NCBI GenBank assembly: GCA_036012755.1
Contig: DASCPX010000183.1
Location: forward strand, 15,849-79,848
Source of the DNA: Myxococcota bacterium
Lineage (GTDB): Bacteria > Myxococcota_A > UBA796 > CAJQPC01
Direction of reading: 5' to 3'
Length of the DNA: 64,000 bases
The position numbers and the translations under genes are program-made. Positions 49,670-53,435 of the stretch are shown here, piece after piece. Below the pieces are notes generated by a model, which did no database searches, was not told the DNA's origin, and saw only the letters and a program-made list of their open reading frames with translations. The first letter of the stretch is position 1; every line of letters begins with the position of its first letter.

Positions 49670-50284
49670 ATGTCGGTCACCGTTCGCGGTTACGTCTTCA
49701 TCGACTCCCTCCAGCCGCAGCTGGCTGCTTTCACCGGCACGACCTGCCGGGGCTTCCTCCCCCTCGCCGGACAGGCGTCGCTGTGGGTGGAGACGGCTCC
49801 GGGGATGATCATCAACCGGGTGACGGACGTCGCGCTCAAGGCGACGCGCGCGGTGCCCGCGGTGCAGGTGGTGGAGCGGGCCTTCGGCCTGCTCGAGATC
49901 CACCACGACGACAAGGGCGAGGTGCTCTCAGCGGGTGACGCGATCCTCGAGTACCTCGGCGCCGACAGGGCCGCCGTGAGCAAGCCGAAGGTGGTCAGCA
50001 ACCAGATCATCCGCGCGGTAGAGGCCTACCAGGCCCAGCTCATCAACCGGAACCGCCAGGGCATGTTGCTCATTCCGGGACAGTCGCTCTTCATCCTCGA
50101 GACCGAACCAGCTGTGTGGGCGGTCATCGCGGCGAACGAGGCCGAGAAGGCCGCGAACGTCAACCTCGTGAACCTCCGGCCCTTTGGCGCCTTCGGGCGC
50201 TTGTGGATGGCTGGGACCGAGTCCGAGATCGACTCGGCCGCCCAGGCCGCCCAGGCCGTGATCGAGTCTCTCTCTACCTCCTGA
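49670..50284 (+). CDS. bacterial microcompartment shell protein, tandem BMC domains (BMC-T)
   Basis: ATG 49670, 204 aa, made of two ~95-aa halves. Each half has a BMC-like core ([32 protein letters not shown]; [32 protein letters not shown]). Confidence 0.75.
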
Positions 50285-50301
50285 ACAAACCGGAGATCCA
50301 G

Positions 50302-50592
50302 ATGGCTGATGCCCTCGGAATGATCGAAACCCGTGGCTTCGTCGGCGTGGTCGAAGCCGCCGACGCCATGGTCAAGGCCGCTCGCGTAGAGCTGGTCGGC
50401 TACGAGAAGATTGGTGGTGGCTATGTCACCGCCGTGGTGCGCGGCGACGTCGCGGCTGTCAAGGCGGCCACAGAGGCCGGCGCTCGCCAGGCCCAGCGCA
50501 TCGGCGAGCTGGTCAGCGTCCACGTCATCCCGCGTCCCCACGCGAACATCGACGAGGTCCTCCCGCTCGGTCGTGGCCCCCAAGGTGGCTGA
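50302..50592 (+). CDS. bacterial microcompartment hexamer shell protein (BMC-H, PduA/EutM/CcmK type)
   Basis: [60 protein letters not shown] is a canonical BMC domain. GGAG lies upstream. Confidence 0.95.
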
Positions 50593-50595
50593 TAG

Positions 50596-50910
50596 ATGAA
50601 GCTCGGCCGCATCGTCGGGACCGTGGTCTCGACGCGAAAGGACCCCAAGATCGAGGGCTTGCGCCTGTACCTCGTGCAGGACCTGTCCCTCGCTCTGGAA
50701 GGCAGGGAGTCCTTTGTCGTCGCGGCCGACGCGATGGGCGCGGGAGTCGGCGAGGTCGTCCTCTACGCCTCGGGCTCCTCCGCTCGCCAGACGGACATCA
50801 CGGACAACCGGCCAGTCGACGCCGTCGTCATGGCGATCGTCGACTCGATCCATCGCTACGGCGAGCTGGTGTTCAACAAGGTGCCGCCGTTTCCGAAGGC
50901 TGACGGCTGA
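50596..50910 (+). CDS. microcompartment vertex pentamer (BMC-P, EutN/CcmL family)
   Basis: [28 protein letters not shown] ... AVVMAIVD is the typical EutN/CcmL pattern. Confidence 0.9.
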
Positions 50911-50969
50911 TGCAGCGCGAGGAGATCCACAGCATCGTCGAGCGGGTCCTCGCGCGGGTGCGGGCTGGG
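50910..50969 (+). other. predicted encapsulation peptide (amphipathic helix) of the aldehyde dehydrogenase
   Basis: [20 protein letters not shown] is followed by the Pro/Ser linker [14 protein letters not shown] before the ALDH core. Confidence 0.6.
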
Positions 50970-52313
50970 GAGATGCCCGCCTCCAGCGAGCCTCCGGCGA
51001 ACCCGCACGGCGTCTACAAGACCGTGTCGGAGGCCGTGGACGCCGCGCGCACCGCGCAGCGTGTCCTGATCAACCTGCCGCTGGAGAAGCGCCGGGAGAT
51101 CATCGCGAACATCCGGCGGCGCGCGGCAGAGGATGTCCACAGCCTCGCGCGGATGGCGCACGAGGAGACCGGACTCGGCCGCGTCGAGGACAAGGTCAAG
51201 AAGAACCTGCTGGTCATCCACAGGACCCCCGGCCCGGAGATCCTCCAGCCCACAGCGTGGACCGGCGACGGCGGACTCACCCTCATGGAGCGCGCGCCCT
51301 ACGGCGTCATCGGCTCCATCACGCCCTGCACCAACCCCACCGAGACCATCATCTGCAACGGCATCGGCATGGTCTCCGGTGGCAACACGGTGGTCTTCAA
51401 CACCCACCCGGCCGCCAAGAGCATCTCCGGCTACTGCATCGACCTCATCAACCGCGCGAGCATCGAGGTGGGCGGGCCGGACAACCTGATGTGCTGCGTC
51501 GCGGTCCCCACCATCGCCTCGGCGACCGAGCTGATGAAGTTCCCGGGGCTGCGTCTCATCGTCGTCACCGGCGGCCCTGGGGTCGTGCAGGCGGCGATGA
51601 ACTCGGGCAAGAAGGCCATCTGCGCGGGCCCGGGCAACCCGCCTGTGGTCGTCGACGAGACCGCCGACATCGATGACGCGGGGCGCAACATCGTCGCGGG
51701 CGCGAGCTTCGACAACAACGTCATCTGCACCGACGAAAAAGAAGTGCTGGTCGTCGACAAGGTCGCCGACCGCTTGATGGACGCGATGACCCACTCCGGC
51801 GCCGTGCGGCTCCGCAACCACCAGATCACGCGCCTCGAGAGGCTGATCCTGACCCCCGACGGGCTCCACGTGAACCGGGACTGGATCGGCAAGATGCCGA
51901 GCGCGATGCTGCGTGAGATCGACGTGCCGTTTTCCGGGGACCCTCGGCTCATCATCTGCGAGGTCCCCTTCGAGCACCCCTTCGTGCAGCACGAGCTGCT
52001 CATGCCGGTCATCGGCGTGGTCCGGGTGCGTGACGTGCACGAGGGCATCGATCTCGCCAAGGAGGCCGAGCACGGCTTCGGGCACACGGCGTCGATGTAC
52101 TCCAAGAACCTCGACGCGCTGCATCGCATGGCGCGGGTCATGGACGTCAGCATCTTCGTGAAGAACGCGCCGAACTACGCGGGCCTCGGCTTCGGGGGAG
52201 AGGGCTTCACCAGCTTCACGATCGCCAGCCCCACCGGCGAGGGCCTCACGACGGCCATCGACTTCACGCGGGTCCGGCGCTGCACGCTGGCCGGCTACTT
52301 CCGCATCGTCTGA
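50910..52313 (+). CDS. CoA-acylating aldehyde dehydrogenase (PduP/EutE-like) with N-terminal encapsulation peptide
   Basis: ATG overlaps the upstream TGA by 1 nt. ALDH fold with the catalytic Cys in [12 protein letters not shown], and [10 protein letters not shown]. It is 467 aa, and the N-terminal ~35 aa are extra. Confidence 0.9.
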
Positions 52314-52318
52314 GCGAC

Positions 52319-52897
52319 ATGAGCGGAACCGGGGATGCGCTCGCACTCGTCGAGCTCGACTCGATCGCGCGTGGCTACCGCGTCCTGGACGCCATGGTGA
52401 AGCGCTCGCCGGTCGAGATCCTCGAGGCCAACCTCGTCGAGCCGGGCAAGTACCTGATCCTCTTCGCTGGCGGTGTCGCCGAGGTCGAGGAGAGCTACTC
52501 GGCGGCCCTCGAGGCCGGGGCCGGACACCACCTCGACGCGATGCTCCTTCCGATGGTCCACGGCGCCATCGTGCCGGGACTGCGCGGCTACCACAACTGC
52601 GAGGAGCCAGACACCATCGGGGTGATCGAAGCGACCTCCGTGGCGGCGATGCTCGAGTCCTGCGACCGCTCGCTCAAGGACGCCGAGGTCGTGCTCGCCG
52701 GCCTGCGCCTCACCCCGGCGCTCGGCGGAAAGGCCTTCTTCGTCGTGCACGGCGAGCAGGCCGATGTCGAAGCGGCTGCGGAGATCGCAGGGGCTGTGCT
52801 GCTCGAGCGCAAGGTCCAGATCGAGGTCATCGCGCGGCCGCACGAGGACTTCCTGGCCTACCTGCTTCGCCCCGCGCCCTTTAGAGTGGAGACCTGA
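52319..52897 (+). CDS. bacterial microcompartment shell protein, tandem BMC domains (BMC-T, PduT-like architecture)
   Basis: ALALVELDSIARGYRVLDAMVKRSPVEIL and TIGVIEATSVAAMLESCDRSLKDAEVVL are the cores of two BMC domains. 192 aa. Confidence 0.8.
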   Translation: MSGTGDALALVELDSIARGYRVLDAMVKRSPVEILEANLVEPGKYLILFAGGVAEVEESYSAALEAGAGHHLDAMLLPMVHGAIVPGLRGYHNCEEPDTIGVIEATSVAAMLESCDRSLKDAEVVLAGLRLTPALGGKAFFVVHGEQADVEAAAEIAGAVLLERKVQIEVIARPHEDFLAYLLRPAPFRVET

Positions 52898-53166
52898 TGG
52901 AGCTCGCGCGCGTCATCGGCACGGTCGTTGCCACCCAAAAGCACGAGGCCCTCGAGGGGGTCAAGCTGCTCGTCATCCAGCCCCATGACCACAACGGAGA
53001 CGCCCAGGGCGACCCCATCGTCGCCGCGGATCCGCTCCAGGCGGGGGTCGGAGACACGGTCCAGTGGATCTGCGGGCGAGAGGCCGCCCTCGCGCTGCCC
53101 CAGACCTTCACCCCGGTCGACGCCTCGATCGTGGCCATCGTCGATCACGTCTGGGGTCGCGAGTGA
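52897..53166 (+). CDS. microcompartment vertex pentamer (BMC-P) paralogue 2
   Basis: MELARVIGTVVATQKHEALEGVKLLVIQ ... ASIVAIVD. Its ATG overlaps the upstream TGA by 1 nt. Confidence 0.9.
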   Translation: MELARVIGTVVATQKHEALEGVKLLVIQPHDHNGDAQGDPIVAADPLQAGVGDTVQWICGREAALALPQTFTPVDASIVAIVDHVWGRE

Positions 53167-53435
53167 TCCTCTGCCGGGTCATCGGCAACGCCGTCGCCAC
53201 CGTGAAGCTGCCGGTCTACGTGGGCCACACGGTGCTGGTCTGCCGCCCGGTGAAGTGGGACGGTGAGACCCCCAACGGCCACGTCTTCCTGGCCAGCGAC
53301 TCGGTCCAGGCGGGCGAGGGCGACCTGGTGCTCTGCGCCCGAGAGGGCAACACGGCGAGGCAGATCCTGGCCGACGACGACTCGCCTGTCCACGCCGTCG
53401 TGGTTGGCATCGTGGACGACATCCACACGGAGTAG
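53163..53435 (+). CDS. microcompartment vertex pentamer (BMC-P) paralogue 3
   Basis: GTG 53163 overlaps the upstream TGA (GTGA). VILCRVIGNAVATVKLPVYVGHTVLVCRP ... AVVVGIVD. Confidence 0.85.
   Translation: MILCRVIGNAVATVKLPVYVGHTVLVCRPVKWDGETPNGHVFLASDSVQAGEGDLVLCAREGNTARQILADDDSPVHAVVVGIVDDIHTE

What the first reader, a model, noticed from the sequence alone, without database searches (positions are those of the whole stretch)
49670..53435. Complete microcompartment shell locus with a single enzyme: an organelle of unknown function
Seven tightly packed plus-strand genes are present: BMC-T, BMC-H, BMC-P, acylating aldehyde dehydrogenase, BMC-T, BMC-P and BMC-P. All shell classes are there. 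Several expected parts are missing: an aldehyde-generating signature enzyme, a phosphotransacylase (PduL/Pta), an alcohol dehydrogenase for cofactor recycling, and a regulator or transporter in the block. The flanks are an opposite-strand lipoprotein/GT2/asnB operon and a BI-1 gene. This is the 'metabolosome with incomplete core' layout. The order T-H-P-AldDH-T is, as far as I remember, the mirror image of the Haliangium ochraceum Hoch_5812-5816 locus. That shell is structurally well studied, but its substrate is unknown. Here the two extra pentamer genes are consolidated into the main locus. This is my best candidate for an undescribed physiological system in the window.
Basis: partly seen in the sequence, partly recalled or inferred. 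Interest (0 to 1): 0.75.

Follow-up and report, generated by a model that had tools for sequence, protein, structure and literature searches.

The report
Myxobacterial HO-type microcompartment locus
This is a real seven-gene protein-organelle (bacterial microcompartment) operon of the already catalogued "HO" type from a myxobacterial metagenome genome; it is not a one-enzyme system, because its usual partner enzyme, a class II aldolase with a likely targeting tail, lies 8.4 kb downstream, but what the organelle digests is still unknown.

Summary
Seven tightly packed plus-strand genes at 49670-53435 encode BMC-Tdp, BMC-H, BMC-P, a CoA-acylating aldehyde dehydrogenase (AldDH), BMC-Ts, BMC-P and BMC-P. 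All pass the Pfam cut-offs. The shell proteins are orthologues of the solved Haliangium ochraceum shell (H 83%, Tdp 68%, P 60%, Ts 44% identity).

- The layout is already described: it is the "HO type II" locus of Sutter et al. 2021 (41 HO loci, function "enigmatic").
- It is not a one-enzyme system. A class II aldolase (PF00596) lies at 61884-62594 on the minus strand. Among its 80 closest relatives in GTDB genomes, 66 lie within 10 kb of BMC-P genes, and 33 follow the same T-H-P-AldDH-T-P-P array on the same strand.
- Here, and in one sister genome, an 8.4 kb block was inserted and the aldolase gene inverted.
- The aldolase keeps a conserved C-terminal amphipathic helix behind a disordered linker. 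The AldDH has the conserved N-terminal encapsulation peptide.

Most likely mechanism: a ketose-1-phosphate is cleaved to DHAP plus a short aldehyde, which is oxidised to acyl-CoA inside the shell. No PTAC, alcohol dehydrogenase, DeoC or RpiB was found in the window. The substrate remains unknown.

Verdict: a new member of a known kind, of moderate to low interest.

The parts
49670..50284 (+). BMC-Tdp, the double-stacking tandem-domain trimer (204 aa). It is the orthologue of H. ochraceum HO-T2 (Hoch_5816).
   Evidence: PDB 6N07/5V74 HO-5816: E=3e-88, full length, 68% identity. It is weaker against HO-T3 (5V76, E=6e-65). Pfam PF00936 scores 30.6 bits. Precomputed Pfam gives PF27545 CsoS1D_N.
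50302..50592 (+). BMC-H hexamer (96 aa), the only BMC-H gene in the window.
   Evidence: PF00936 scores 108.5 bits. It is 83% identical to HO-5815 (5DJB/5V74), E=1e-45.
50596..50910 (+). BMC-P1 pentamer (104 aa), the orthologue of the Hoch_5814 vertex protein.
   Evidence: PF03319 scores 97 bits. The 5V74 pentamer chain matches at E=2e-29 with 60% identity.
50910..52313 (+). CoA-acylating aldehyde dehydrogenase of the EutE/PduP type (467 aa). Residues 1-21 (50910-50972) form an amphipathic encapsulation peptide, [21 protein letters not shown]. Residues 22-32 form a Pro/Ala/Ser linker.
   Evidence: NCBIfam NF011927 scores 648.6 bits (cut-off 403). It is 49% identical to the C. phytofermentans BMC AldDH 4C3S over residues 33-461. 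The catalytic Cys in [10 protein letters not shown] aligns with the Cys that is mutated to Ala in 5DBV. The N-terminal helix plus linker is conserved in 30 related loci. Its hydrophobic moment of 0.66 is above the protein's 95th percentile. [quoted passage not shown]
52319..52897 (+). BMC-Ts, the single-layer tandem-domain trimer (192 aa), HO-T1/PduT-like. Glu occupies the position of the PduT Fe-S cysteine (position recalled from memory, not tested).
   Evidence: PF00936 matches twice, 99.1 bits. 5DIH (Hoch_5812) matches at E=5e-29 with 44% identity.
52897..53166 (+). BMC-P2 pentamer paralogue (89 aa).
   Evidence: PF03319 scores 97.5 bits. In 29 other loci, orthologues form the P2-P3-aldolase module without an AldDH in the held sequence.
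53163..53435 (+). BMC-P3 pentamer paralogue (90 aa). It has a GTG start that overlaps the P2 stop by 4 nt.
   Evidence: PF03319 scores 75.3 bits. The junction sequence was read directly. It is 93% identical to P3 of the sister MAG locus L005.
61884..62594 (-). Class II aldolase-family enzyme (236 aa), the likely signature enzyme of the organelle. The catalytic core spans residues 1-204, a disordered linker residues 205-223, and a C-terminal amphipathic helix residues 224-235 (about 61890-61925), ATSIVADALKRH.
   Evidence: PF00596: E=8e-41, 140 bits. Of its 80 closest relatives in GTDB genomes, 66 lie next to HO BMC genes. The AF2 model has pLDDT 92.4, with a disordered linker and a terminal helix. 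The C-terminal motif [ILV]V..AL.R[LF] is conserved in 47 sequences despite variable linkers. The metal-ligand His94, His96 and His151, the catalytic Glu75 and Glu117 are conserved. Foldseek gives TM 0.85-0.88 to YgbL, DrdA and FucA.
53498..61806 (-). An inserted block that separates the aldolase from BMC-P3. It is probably not part of the organelle. It contains BI-1, a 532-685 aa membrane protein, two unknown proteins, an ABC ATPase, an ABC permease, an SsuA/NMT1-like binding protein fused to an OmpA domain, and a 240 aa unknown protein.
   Evidence: Pfam and NCBIfam hits. The block lies between P3 and the aldolase only in the window, L005, L013 and L014. It is absent from the 33 loci where the aldolase follows P3 on the same strand within 4 kb.
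62599..63998 (-). A ComEA-like protein with two HHH_3 domains (62599-63105) and a secreted MBL-fold, ComEC-C-terminal-like protein (63108 to the window end or beyond). They are conserved neighbours of the HO aldolase, and in this window they lie directly upstream of it on the same strand. A functional link is a lead only.
   Evidence: PF12836: E=2e-41. PF00753: E=1.7e-12. The pair is a neighbour of the aldolase in 23-24 of 80 loci. The ComEA stop and the aldolase ATG are 4 nt apart. The MBL homologues are about 330 aa with signal-peptide-like N-termini.

Best explanation
The locus is an HO-type, subtype II bacterial microcompartment (metabolosome) operon from an uncultured Myxococcota bacterium.

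Shown here:
- Seven co-directional, translationally coupled genes encode one hexamer, one single-layer trimer, one double-layer (gated) trimer and a pentamer triplet.
- They also encode a CoA-acylating aldehyde dehydrogenase whose N-terminal amphipathic helix plus linker is the conserved HO encapsulation peptide.

Inferred from comparative genomics and from the protein architecture:
- The organelle's aldehyde-generating enzyme is the class II aldolase-family protein at 61884-62594 (-). In related genomes it is the eighth gene of the operon, or it follows the P2-P3 satellite pair. In this lineage it has been displaced by an 8.4 kb insertion and inverted.
- It is targeted to the lumen by its conserved C-terminal helix.

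Proposed chemistry (inferred, not shown):
1. A ketose-1-phosphate enters the shell. Candidates are L-fuculose-1-P, L-rhamnulose-1-P, D-ribulose-1-P, 5-deoxyribulose-1-P and 5-methylthioribulose-1-P.
2. The aldolase cleaves it to DHAP plus a short reactive aldehyde (lactaldehyde, glycolaldehyde, acetaldehyde or a relative).
3. The aldehyde is confined by the shell and oxidised by the AldDH with NAD+ and CoA to an acyl-CoA.
4. DHAP leaves for glycolysis.

No PTAC or alcohol dehydrogenase is encoded in the window. NAD+ and CoA must therefore be exchanged with the cytosol, plausibly through the gated BMC-Tdp pores, or be recycled by enzymes encoded elsewhere.
For: Identity of the shell and the AldDH.

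Classification: the Sutter 2021 text and Supplementary Data 2 describe HO type II as having nearly all components in the main locus with a satellite Tdp. [quoted passage not shown]

Aldolase linkage among the 80 best relatives of the window aldolase:
- 18 lie 150 nt or less downstream of P3 in a full T-H-P-AldDH-T-P-P array.
- 15 lie 150-4000 nt downstream on the same strand.
- 4 are further away or on the opposite strand.
- 29 follow a P2-P3 pair without an AldDH in the held sequence.

Encapsulation-peptide architecture: the AldDH N-terminus is conserved in 30 loci. The aldolase has a variable linker followed by an invariant-pattern terminal helix. AF2 gives a confident core, a linker with pLDDT about 52 and a terminal helix with pLDDT about 78.

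Catalytic competence: the AldDH Cys is conserved. The aldolase metal-ligand His94 and His96 and Glu75 are conserved in 78 of 78 family members; His151 is conserved in 70 of 78.

Triose-phosphate permeability of HO shells is reported in vitro, as cited in PMC12720247.
Against: - No biochemical or genetic data exist for any HO organelle.
- The aldolase reaches no NCBIfam equivalog. The best score is 102 bits against a 300-bit cut-off, for ribulose-1-P aldolase. It is only 25-31% identical to any solved enzyme.
- The family has an invariant Glu117 where FucA (Tyr113), DrdA (6BTD) and YgbL (6VOP) have Tyr. The reaction may therefore not be a FucA-like aldol cleavage.
- The aldolase helix is not detectably similar to the AldDH EP by HMM, so targeting is inferred and not demonstrated.
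- In this window the aldolase is no longer in the shell operon and may be transcribed with ComEA and MBL instead.
- There is no cofactor-recycling enzyme, so the stoichiometry of the pathway is unexplained.
- The second Tdp and any further cargo lie outside the window and could not be examined.
Confidence: 0.6

Rival explanations
1. The organelle is SPU-like and acts in nucleic-acid catabolism. The main aldehyde source would be a deoxyribose-5-phosphate aldolase (DeoC, PF01791) encoded elsewhere in the genome, giving acetaldehyde plus G3P. The class II aldolase would be an accessory enzyme, as in SPU and archaeal type II loci.
For: - Sutter 2021 reports that the HO AldDh is closest to SPU5/SPU7, and that some HO genomes have an EP-bearing pfam01791 enzyme elsewhere.
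- In 9 type I satellite loci, a DeoC with an N-terminal amphipathic extension directly follows the aldolase.
- The SPU-type compartments of Myxococcota and Hodarchaeales combine DERA, TPI and a class II aldolase.
- DNA-binding ComEA-like and ComEC-nuclease-like genes flank the aldolase in 23-24 loci, and here they lie directly upstream of it on the same strand.
Against: - There is no DeoC in the 64 kb window: tblastn finds no hit better than E=0.04.
- No PF01791, PF02502 or PTAC appears in the Pfam lists of the contig genes.
- DeoC is adjacent in only 9 of 80 loci, whereas the class II aldolase is the near-universal partner.
- The ComEA/MBL adjacency is confined to the type II clade. Upstream synteny (AsnB, GT2, lipoprotein) is conserved in the same clade, so the adjacency may simply be inherited gene order.
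Confidence: 0.15
2. The organelle contains only the AldDH and detoxifies aldehydes. The shell would hold only the aldehyde dehydrogenase and scavenge aldehydes made in the cytosol. The displaced aldolase would now be a cytosolic enzyme unrelated to the organelle in this lineage.
For: - The seven-gene operon contains no second enzyme.
- The aldolase has been separated by 8.4 kb and inverted, and it sits 4 nt after a ComEA-like gene.
- Sutter 2021 notes that only about a third of HO-associated aldolases have an obvious C-terminal extension.
Against: - The window aldolase retains the full linker and helix. The helix motif is conserved in 47 relatives, including the sister MAG with the same rearrangement. 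This would not be expected if targeting had become irrelevant.
- 66 of 80 relatives are physically linked to BMC-P genes.
- Confining an AldDH away from freely diffusing cytosolic aldehydes offers no obvious advantage (inference).
Confidence: 0.12
3. The PF00596 protein is not an aldolase. It would be an epimerase, dehydratase or decarboxylase of the class II aldolase superfamily (AraD-, MtnB- or OtnC-like), so the organelle's chemistry would differ from the aldolase-plus-AldDH scheme.
For: - An invariant Glu117 replaces the Tyr that FucA, DrdA and YgbL have at this position.
- From memory, not tested here: AraD uses an Asp and MtnB/APIP a Glu from the equivalent loop as acid/base.
- NCBIfam scores are about equal for ribulose-1-P aldolase, L-ribulose-5-P 4-epimerase, oxo-tetronate-4-P decarboxylase and FucA, and all are far below their cut-offs.
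- The top Foldseek hit is YgbL.
Against: - The only conserved enzymatic partner is an acylating AldDH, which needs an aldehyde substrate.
- In PVM and GRM5 compartments the same Pfam family acts as an aldolase feeding an AldDH (Sutter 2021).
- The MtnB models match only the N-terminal half and score below their cut-off.
Confidence: 0.1
4. The locus is a decaying or non-functional remnant.
For: The aldolase is rearranged. No recycling enzymes or regulator are present.
Against: - All eight ORFs are intact, with genome-typical GC3 of 0.85-0.95 and overlapping start/stop junctions.
- The catalytic residues are intact.
- The identical AldDH is found on 23 contigs from several samples.
- The same arrangement is conserved at 64-93% protein identity in the sister MAG L005.
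Confidence: 0.03

Closest known systems
HO-type BMC locus, subtype II (Sutter et al. 2021, Nat Commun 12:3809, Supplementary Data 2)
   Same: - One BMC-H, one BMC-Ts and one BMC-Tdp in the main locus.
- All three BMC-P genes in the main locus.
- An AldDH with an N-terminal EP.
- No PTAC or AlcDH.
- An associated pfam00596 aldolase.
- A Myxococcota ("delta-proteobacterial") host.
   Different: The aldolase is not contiguous with the operon. An 8.4 kb block of 8 unrelated genes lies between P3 and the aldolase, and the aldolase gene is inverted. The same arrangement occurs in one sister MAG (L005), and the insertion without the inversion occurs in L013 and L014. The satellite second Tdp could not be looked for outside the window.
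Haliangium ochraceum DSM 14365 BMC (Hoch_5812-5816, with satellites Hoch_4425/4426 and Hoch_3341); HO type I; shell structure 5V74
   Same: The shell proteins are orthologous: H 83%, Tdp (T2) 68%, P 60% and Ts (T1) 44% identity. The internal gene order is the same as 5816, 5815, 5814, 5813, 5812. The function is likewise unknown.
   Different: In H. ochraceum the two extra pentamer genes lie in a satellite locus, and according to Sutter 2021 a pfam00596 aldolase lies on a satellite locus of 24 of the 30 type I loci; I did not check the H. ochraceum record itself. Here the pentamers are fused to the main operon. The sequences are diverged, so this is a different lineage and not H. ochraceum.
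SPU (sugar-phosphate utilisation) metabolosomes, including the Myxococcota and Hodarchaeales SPU-type compartments (Sutter 2021; preprint PMC12747264)
   Same: According to Sutter 2021 the AldDH clade is related (SPU5/SPU7). The two systems also share the BMC-P triplet and similar Tdp types. Some SPU and archaeal type II loci also carry a PF00596 class II aldolase. An aldolase feeds an acylating AldDH in both.
   Different: The defining SPU enzymes DeoC (PF01791) and RpiB (PF02502), and usually a PTAC, were not found in the window. SPU loci have two BMC-H genes, whereas this locus has one.
PVM and GRM5 fucose/rhamnose microcompartments (a class II aldolase cleaves fuculose-1-P or rhamnulose-1-P to DHAP plus lactaldehyde)
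   Same: The working principle is the same: a PF00596 aldolase generates an aldehyde that an encapsulated acylating AldDH converts to acyl-CoA.
   Different: Those loci have complete cores (PTAC, alcohol or lactaldehyde dehydrogenase), different shell inventories and regulators. The aldolase here reaches no FucA or RhaD equivalog model, and it has Glu where FucA has Tyr113.

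Membership tests
Bacterial microcompartment (BMC) locus | Genes for BMC-H/T (PF00936) and BMC-P (PF03319) shell proteins are clustered. 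| tested here: met
   Three PF00936 and three PF03319 proteins score above the gathering cut-offs within 3.8 kb. Four of them (Tdp, H, Ts, P1) match solved H. ochraceum shell proteins, and P2 also matches the 5V74 pentamer.
HO-type BMC (Sutter 2021) | A single BMC-H, a BMC-Ts of the HO-T1 kind, and a BMC-P triplet. | tested here: met
   The window has one H, one Ts (best natural PDB relative 5DIH, Hoch_5812) and three P genes. Placement of P2 and P3 in the grey and orange clades of the published tree was not tested.
HO-type BMC (Sutter 2021) | Two BMC-Tdp paralogues; in type II, one in the main locus and one on a satellite. | tested here: inconclusive
   One Tdp, the HO-T2 orthologue, is in the main locus. 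No second Tdp is present in the 64 kb window. The rest of the genome is not available.
HO-type BMC (Sutter 2021) | An acylating AldDH with an N-terminal encapsulation peptide. | tested here: met
   NF011927 scores 648 bits. The catalytic Cys aligns. A 32-residue N-terminal extension, with an amphipathic helix and a P/A linker, is conserved in 30 loci. The placement of the AldDH clade next to SPU5/SPU7 was not tested.
HO-type BMC (Sutter 2021) | An associated pfam00596 aldolase, in the main locus in about half of type II loci or on the P-P satellite in type I loci. | tested here: met
   A PF00596 protein lies 8.4 kb from P3. It is orthologous (50-66% identity) to aldolases that directly follow P3 in 33 loci, or a P2-P3 pair in 29 loci. 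The position is atypical: displaced and inverted.
HO-type BMC, subtype II | All three BMC-P genes and the AldDH are in one locus. | tested here: met
   The order is Tdp-H-P1-AldDH-Ts-P2-P3, with gaps of 17 nt or less.
Canonical complete-core metabolosome (PDU/EUT paradigm) | A signature enzyme, an AldDH, a phosphotransacylase (PduL or Pta) and an alcohol dehydrogenase are encoded together. | tested here: not met
   No PTAC or alcohol dehydrogenase family appears among the Pfam hits for the genes of the window. Only the AldDH and the aldolase are present.
SPU metabolosome | DeoC-type aldolase (PF01791) and RpiB (PF02502) are in the locus. | tested here: not met
   tblastn with an HO-satellite DeoC finds nothing better than E=0.04 in the window. 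No PF01791 or PF02502 appears in the Pfam lists. The rest of the genome is not testable.
L-fuculose-1-phosphate aldolase (FucA) and other named class II aldolase equivalogs | The score is above the curated NCBIfam equivalog cut-off, and the catalytic Tyr113 is present. | tested here: not met
   The best FucA models score 62-89 bits against cut-offs of 250-400. The best overall hit, ribulose-1-P aldolase, scores 102 bits against 300. Glu117 aligns with the Tyr of DrdA (6BTD) and YgbL (6VOP), which by my own alignment of the E. coli FucA sequence recalled from memory corresponds to FucA Tyr113. Superfamily membership (PF00596, metal-ligand His94, His96 and His151, Glu75) is met.
Encapsulation peptide (EP) | A short terminal amphipathic helix, joined to the catalytic domain by a poorly conserved flexible linker, that mediates binding to the shell. 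| tested here: inconclusive
   The architecture is met for both enzymes. Shell binding cannot be tested with these tools. HMMs built from each EP hit only their own protein.

The most novel reading that the evidence does not exclude
The HO organelle would be a compartment for catabolism of nucleoside- or DNA-derived pentose phosphates. Its signature enzyme would be a distinct, uncharacterised clade of class II aldolases with an invariant Glu in place of the FucA-type Tyr. That enzyme would cleave, for example, ribulose-1-P, 5-deoxyribulose-1-P or 5-methylthioribulose-1-P to DHAP plus glycolaldehyde, acetaldehyde or a related aldehyde.

In the type II lineage the organelle would be functionally coupled to a secreted DNA-scavenging pair, a ComEA-like DNA binder and a ComEC-like nuclease. 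In this window that pair has become co-operonic with the aldolase. The organelle would run without internal cofactor recycling, by exchanging NAD(H) and CoA through its two gated Tdp trimers.
Probability: 0.2. Interest if true: 0.6.

Novelty: new member of a known kind. Interest (0 to 1): 0.3.

Why it matters
The H. ochraceum shell is the main structural and synthetic-biology model for microcompartments, yet its natural function has been unknown since 2014. This window adds no new kind of organelle.

The comparison of 80 loci does sharpen the working hypothesis:
- The constant enzymatic partners of the HO shell are an EP-tagged acylating AldDH and a class II aldolase clade with a conserved, EP-like C-terminal helix and an unusual Glu at the acid/base position.
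- DeoC is an occasional third cargo.

This yields concrete proteins and peptides to test, namely the substrate panel for the aldolase and the targeting tails. It also shows that a "shell plus one enzyme" appearance can be an artefact of local rearrangement.

Tried and rejected
1. An HMM of the AldDH N-terminal EP was searched against all 63 window gene products, 78 aldolases and a DeoC. Only the AldDH itself scored (38.5 bits). The aldolase tails scored about 0. There is therefore no detectable sequence similarity between the two putative EPs, and no further AldDH-like EP in the window.

2. An HMM of the aldolase C-terminal helix was searched against the window genes. Only the aldolase scored (19.8 bits).

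3. A search for DeoC in the window was negative.

4. The variable genes found between P3 and the aldolase in other loci look, by eye, like a DsbA-like protein, a rhomboid-like membrane protein, Asp/Thr-rich lipoproteins and a coiled-coil protein. They are not conserved across loci and none looked like a metabolic enzyme. Other flank clusters looked, again by eye and without an HMM search, like a peroxiredoxin, an acyl-CoA dehydrogenase, a STAND regulator, a PP2C phosphatase and a sulfatase. Each occurs in 10 loci or fewer and was not pursued.

5. Regulatory elements:
- No Rfam family was found in the window, and no riboswitch upstream of Tdp.
- No sigma-70-like promoter was found, and no convincing intrinsic terminator (the 4 terminator-like matches lie inside genes).
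- No conserved sigma-54-like -24/-12 element was found upstream of Tdp in 24 loci.

6. No inverted repeats flank the inverted aldolase gene that would explain the inversion.

7. The NCBIfam, PDB and Foldseek comparisons could not assign a substrate to the aldolase.

8. Literature searches for a native HO function from 2021 to 2026 found none.

Numbering note: the DNA reference I used for the aldolase (and hence in the structure model) omitted the ATG codon. Residue numbers in those outputs are one lower than the true protein numbering used in this report.

Full report
**Observation**

The window is about 69% G+C. Coding frames are easy to recognise from GC3 values of 0.8-0.95. Seven plus-strand genes lie exactly at the reported coordinates:

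| Gene | Coordinates |
|---|---|
| BMC-Tdp | 49670-50284 |
| BMC-H | 50302-50592 |
| BMC-P1 | 50596-50910 |
| AldDH | 50910-52313 |
| BMC-Ts | 52319-52897 |
| BMC-P2 | 52897-53166 |
| BMC-P3 | 53163-53435 |

Spacings range from -4 to +17 nt. These include the P1/AldDH and Ts/P2 one-base overlaps and a GTGA overlap at the P2/P3 junction. All seven pass the Pfam gathering scores. The AldDH passes the NCBIfam EutE/PduP-type subfamily model with 648.6 bits against a cut-off of 403. Independent gene calls on public metagenome contigs that carry the identical AldDH give the same seven genes and the same flanks.

**Relation to Haliangium ochraceum**

Four shell proteins are full-length orthologues of solved H. 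ochraceum shell proteins:

| Window protein | H. ochraceum counterpart | E-value | Identity |
|---|---|---|---|
| BMC-H | HO-5815 | 1e-45 | 83% |
| Tdp | HO-5816 (T2) | 3e-88 | 68% |
| P1 | 5V74 pentamer | 2e-29 | 60% |
| Ts | 5DIH (Hoch_5812, T1) | 5e-29 | 44% |

The Tdp match to T3 (5V76) is weaker, at E=6e-65. The aldolase protein encoded in the window is deposited at NCBI under "Myxococcota bacterium" (MAG). The window is not from H. ochraceum itself.

**What the literature already says**

Axen et al. 2014 listed the H. ochraceum locus as a singleton "metabolosome with incomplete core". Sutter et al. 2021 created the "HO" type with 41 loci. Type I (30 loci, including H. ochraceum) has shell genes plus AldDh in the main locus; many of these loci (24 of 30) also have a pfam00596 aldolase on a satellite locus, and the main text describes that satellite as two BMC-P genes with an aldolase. 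Type II (11 loci) has almost all components in the main locus, apart from a satellite Tdp, and the aldolase lies in the main locus in about half of them. According to that paper:
[quoted passage not shown] - the AldDh is closest to SPU5/SPU7;
- some genomes have an EP-bearing pfam01791 enzyme elsewhere;
- the function "remains enigmatic", with nucleic-acid catabolism suggested.

Later papers that use the HO shell, and a 2025 preprint on SPU-type compartments of Myxococcota and Hodarchaeales, report no native HO function. The consolidated T-H-P-AldDH-T-P-P layout is therefore the published HO type II. It is not an undescribed system.

**The second enzyme**

Pfam annotation of the downstream genes found a class II aldolase-family protein (PF00596, E=8e-41) at 61884-62594 on the minus strand, 8.4 kb beyond BMC-P3. 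I used it to scan one genome per GTDB species. That returned 80 loci, most of them labelled Myxococcota or Deltaproteobacteria MAGs and the rest carrying generic or evidently wrong labels. I then mapped the window's shell proteins onto those loci.

| Arrangement | Loci |
|---|---|
| Aldolase 150 nt or less downstream of P3, in a complete colinear Tdp-H-P1-AldDH-Ts-P2-P3 array | 18 |
| Aldolase 150-4000 nt downstream, same strand | 15 |
| Main locus nearby, but aldolase further away or on the opposite strand | 4 |
| P2-P3-aldolase, at least 2.5 kb upstream without an AldDH (the type I satellite) | 24 |
| P2-P3-aldolase on contigs too short to tell | 5 |
| No BMC gene in the held sequence (8 of these on short contigs) | 14 |

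In total, 66 of 80 relatives are physically linked to BMC pentamer genes. The window aldolase is 65% identical to those of L008, L010 and L080, where it is the eighth gene of the operon.

**How the window arrangement arose**

The common type II layout is: AsnB, GT2 and a lipoprotein gene (all pointing away from the operon), then Tdp, H, P1, AldDH, Ts, P2, P3 and the aldolase (all co-directional), then a ComEA-like gene and an MBL gene (convergent with the aldolase).

- In L013 and L014, an 8.5 kb block sits between P3 and the aldolase. The block comprises unk280, unk295, an ABC ATPase, a permease, an SsuA-like binding protein fused to OmpA, and unk240.
- In the window and its closest relative L005 (P3 93% identical), the same block is present together with BI-1; the window also has a large membrane protein there, for which L005 gave no match. 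In addition, the aldolase gene alone is inverted. It now lies 4 nt downstream of the ComEA-like stop codon, on the same strand as ComEA, MBL and the block.

No flanking inverted repeats explain the inversion. The block is absent from the 33 loci where the aldolase follows P3 on the same strand within 4 kb, so I regard it as an unrelated insertion.

**Targeting signals**

The AldDH has a 32-residue N-terminal extension that is absent from the crystallised homologues, whose alignment starts at residue 33.
- Residues 1-21 ([21 protein letters not shown]) are strongly amphipathic, with a hydrophobic moment of 0.66, above the protein's 95th percentile.
- They are followed by a Pro/Ala/Ser linker.
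- The pattern M(E/Q)R(D/E)Q.x.x(I/L)VE(R/K)VL.R(I/V), followed by a variable linker, is conserved in 30 loci.

The aldolase has the mirror-image architecture at its C-terminus.
- The AlphaFold2 model has a mean pLDDT of 92.4.
- It shows a confident core, a low-confidence segment (pLDDT about 52, true residues about 205-223) and a terminal helix (pLDDT about 78, true residues 224-235, ATSIVADALKRH).
- Across 47 relatives the linker varies freely in length and sequence. The terminal motif (D/S)xxx[ILV]Vxx(A)L(K/R)R(L/F) is kept.

This is the classic encapsulation-peptide design. However, binding to the shell is inferred, and the two helices are not similar enough for an HMM of one to detect the other. 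Neither HMM finds a further candidate among the 63 predicted proteins of the window.

**Catalytic features**

The AldDH is 49% identical to the C. phytofermentans fucose/rhamnose BMC AldDH (4C3S). It keeps the catalytic Cys ([10 protein letters not shown]), which aligns with the Cys replaced by Ala in 5DBV.

For the aldolase family:
- Glu75, His94 and His96, the counterparts of FucA Glu73, His92 and His94, are invariant in 78 family members. His151 (FucA His155) is kept in 70 of 78.
- The phosphate-binding GN and (T/S)P motifs are also invariant. This reading rests on established FucA knowledge.
- The position aligned with the Tyr of DrdA 6BTD and YgbL 6VOP, which corresponds to FucA Tyr113 by my alignment of the FucA sequence recalled from memory, is an invariant Glu117.
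- No NCBIfam equivalog is reached. The best is ribulose-1-phosphate aldolase with 102 bits against a 300-bit cut-off. L-ribulose-5-P epimerase, oxo-tetronate-4-P decarboxylase, FucA and MtnB models all score similarly and below threshold.
- Foldseek gives TM of about 0.86 to YgbL, DrdA and FucA alike.

The substrate therefore cannot be read from the sequence, and a non-aldolase reaction is not excluded.

**Other possible cargo and missing parts**

In 9 type I satellite loci, a DeoC-family protein follows the aldolase. Its PF01791 domain starts at residue 83, and it has an N-terminal amphipathic helix plus a Cys-rich segment. The window has no DeoC.

Pfam lists for all called genes across the 64 kb show no RpiB, PduL/Pta, alcohol dehydrogenase, EutBC or PduS, no second Tdp, and no regulator next to the locus. 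No riboswitch or recognisable promoter was found. The "incomplete core" description therefore stands for the window. The rest of the genome could not be examined.

**Most likely mechanism**

- Shown: an HO type II shell operon with an EP-bearing acylating AldDH.
- Strongly inferred: the class II aldolase-family enzyme is co-encapsulated cargo and the aldehyde source.
- Inferred by analogy with PVM/GRM5 and SPU compartments: a ketose-1-phosphate is split into DHAP and a short aldehyde, which is trapped and oxidised to acyl-CoA.
- HO shells are reported to pass triose phosphates in vitro (cited in PMC12720247).
- Speculative: cofactors exchange through the gated Tdp trimers, which would explain the lack of PTAC and AlcDH.

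I put about 0.95 on the classification and about 0.5-0.6 on the aldolase-to-AldDH mechanism.

The rival explanations are:
- an SPU-like DeoC-driven organelle with cargo encoded elsewhere (0.15);
- an AldDH-only scavenger with a now-cytosolic aldolase (0.12);
- a non-aldolase reaction by the PF00596 enzyme (0.10);
- a decaying locus (0.03).

**Verdict**

The finding is real and well described, but the locus is ordinary in kind. It is a further member of a catalogued BMC type with a lineage-specific rearrangement. The claim of a single enzyme does not hold once the neighbourhood and related genomes are examined. The physiological function of HO organelles remains an open question. What this analysis adds to the catalogue is the conserved aldolase tail motif, the Glu-for-Tyr substitution, the DeoC co-cargo and the ComEA/MBL neighbourhood. 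These are modest contributions and are leads only.

Scores: interest 0.3; novelty, new member of a known kind.

Noticed in passing
window 62599-63105 (-) and 63108-63998 (-, runs to the window end): Two secreted proteins flank the HO aldolase. One is ComEA-like, with two HHH_3 domains. The other is an MBL-fold protein of about 330 aa with ComEC-C-terminal-like motifs (LDVGQGDA, HPHADHIGG, LKVAHHGS). They are convergent neighbours of the aldolase in 23-24 of 80 loci. In this window and in L005, the inverted aldolase starts 4 nt after the ComEA stop codon and so looks co-transcribed. This may hint at DNA scavenging feeding the organelle, or it may simply be inherited synteny.
   Followed up: partly
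window 59429-61069 (-), with 58631-59422 and 57825-58634: An ABC transporter has an unusual binding protein. The SsuA/NMT1-like binding domain is fused to a C-terminal OmpA-like peptidoglycan-binding domain. It always travels with three unknown proteins (unk240 at 61072-61794, unk295 at 56938-57825, unk280 at 56099-56941) as a block, which is found in six related loci.
   Followed up: partly
loci L027, L029, L030, L033, L041, L064, L070, L075, L083 (about 700-1600 nt downstream of the aldolase start): A DeoC-family aldolase (PF01791) has an N-terminal extension of about 80 residues. The extension contains an amphipathic helix (for example EMEQLVDEIVKRVQSRL) and a Cys-rich CX6CX2CX2C segment. 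It lies directly after the class II aldolase in HO type I satellite loci and is a probable third cargo protein. It is absent from the window.
   Followed up: partly
window 61884-62594 (-), residue 117 of the aldolase: Glu is invariant in 78 of 78 family members at the position aligned with the Tyr of DrdA (6BTD) and YgbL (6VOP), which by my alignment corresponds to the catalytic Tyr113 of FucA. In eight members, Asn replaces the third metal-ligand His (His151).
   Followed up: partly
window 46040-49546 (-): A divergent upstream operon encodes a lipoprotein-like ORF, a GT2 glycosyltransferase and an asparagine synthase (AsnB). It is syntenic with the HO type II locus in about 19-23 related loci. 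No functional link is evident.
   Followed up: partly
window 33358-38060 (-): A gene cluster encodes a class III aminotransferase, a 284-aa unknown protein, a short LuxC-like acyl-CoA reductase (302 aa), an M19 membrane dipeptidase and a 235-aa membrane protein. It appears unrelated to the BMC.
   Followed up: no
window 42649-44325 (-): A CotH-family protein with a lipoprotein-like N-terminus lies next to a histidine phosphatase and DUF2064/GT2 genes. It appears unrelated to the finding.
   Followed up: no
window 53436-53497: The 62-nt convergent spacer between BMC-P3 and BI-1 contains two short GC-rich hairpins (GGAGGA-TGC-TCCTCC and CAGCGAG...CTCGCTG) without a T-run. They may act as a bidirectional terminator. 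The consensus scan did not call them.
   Followed up: no
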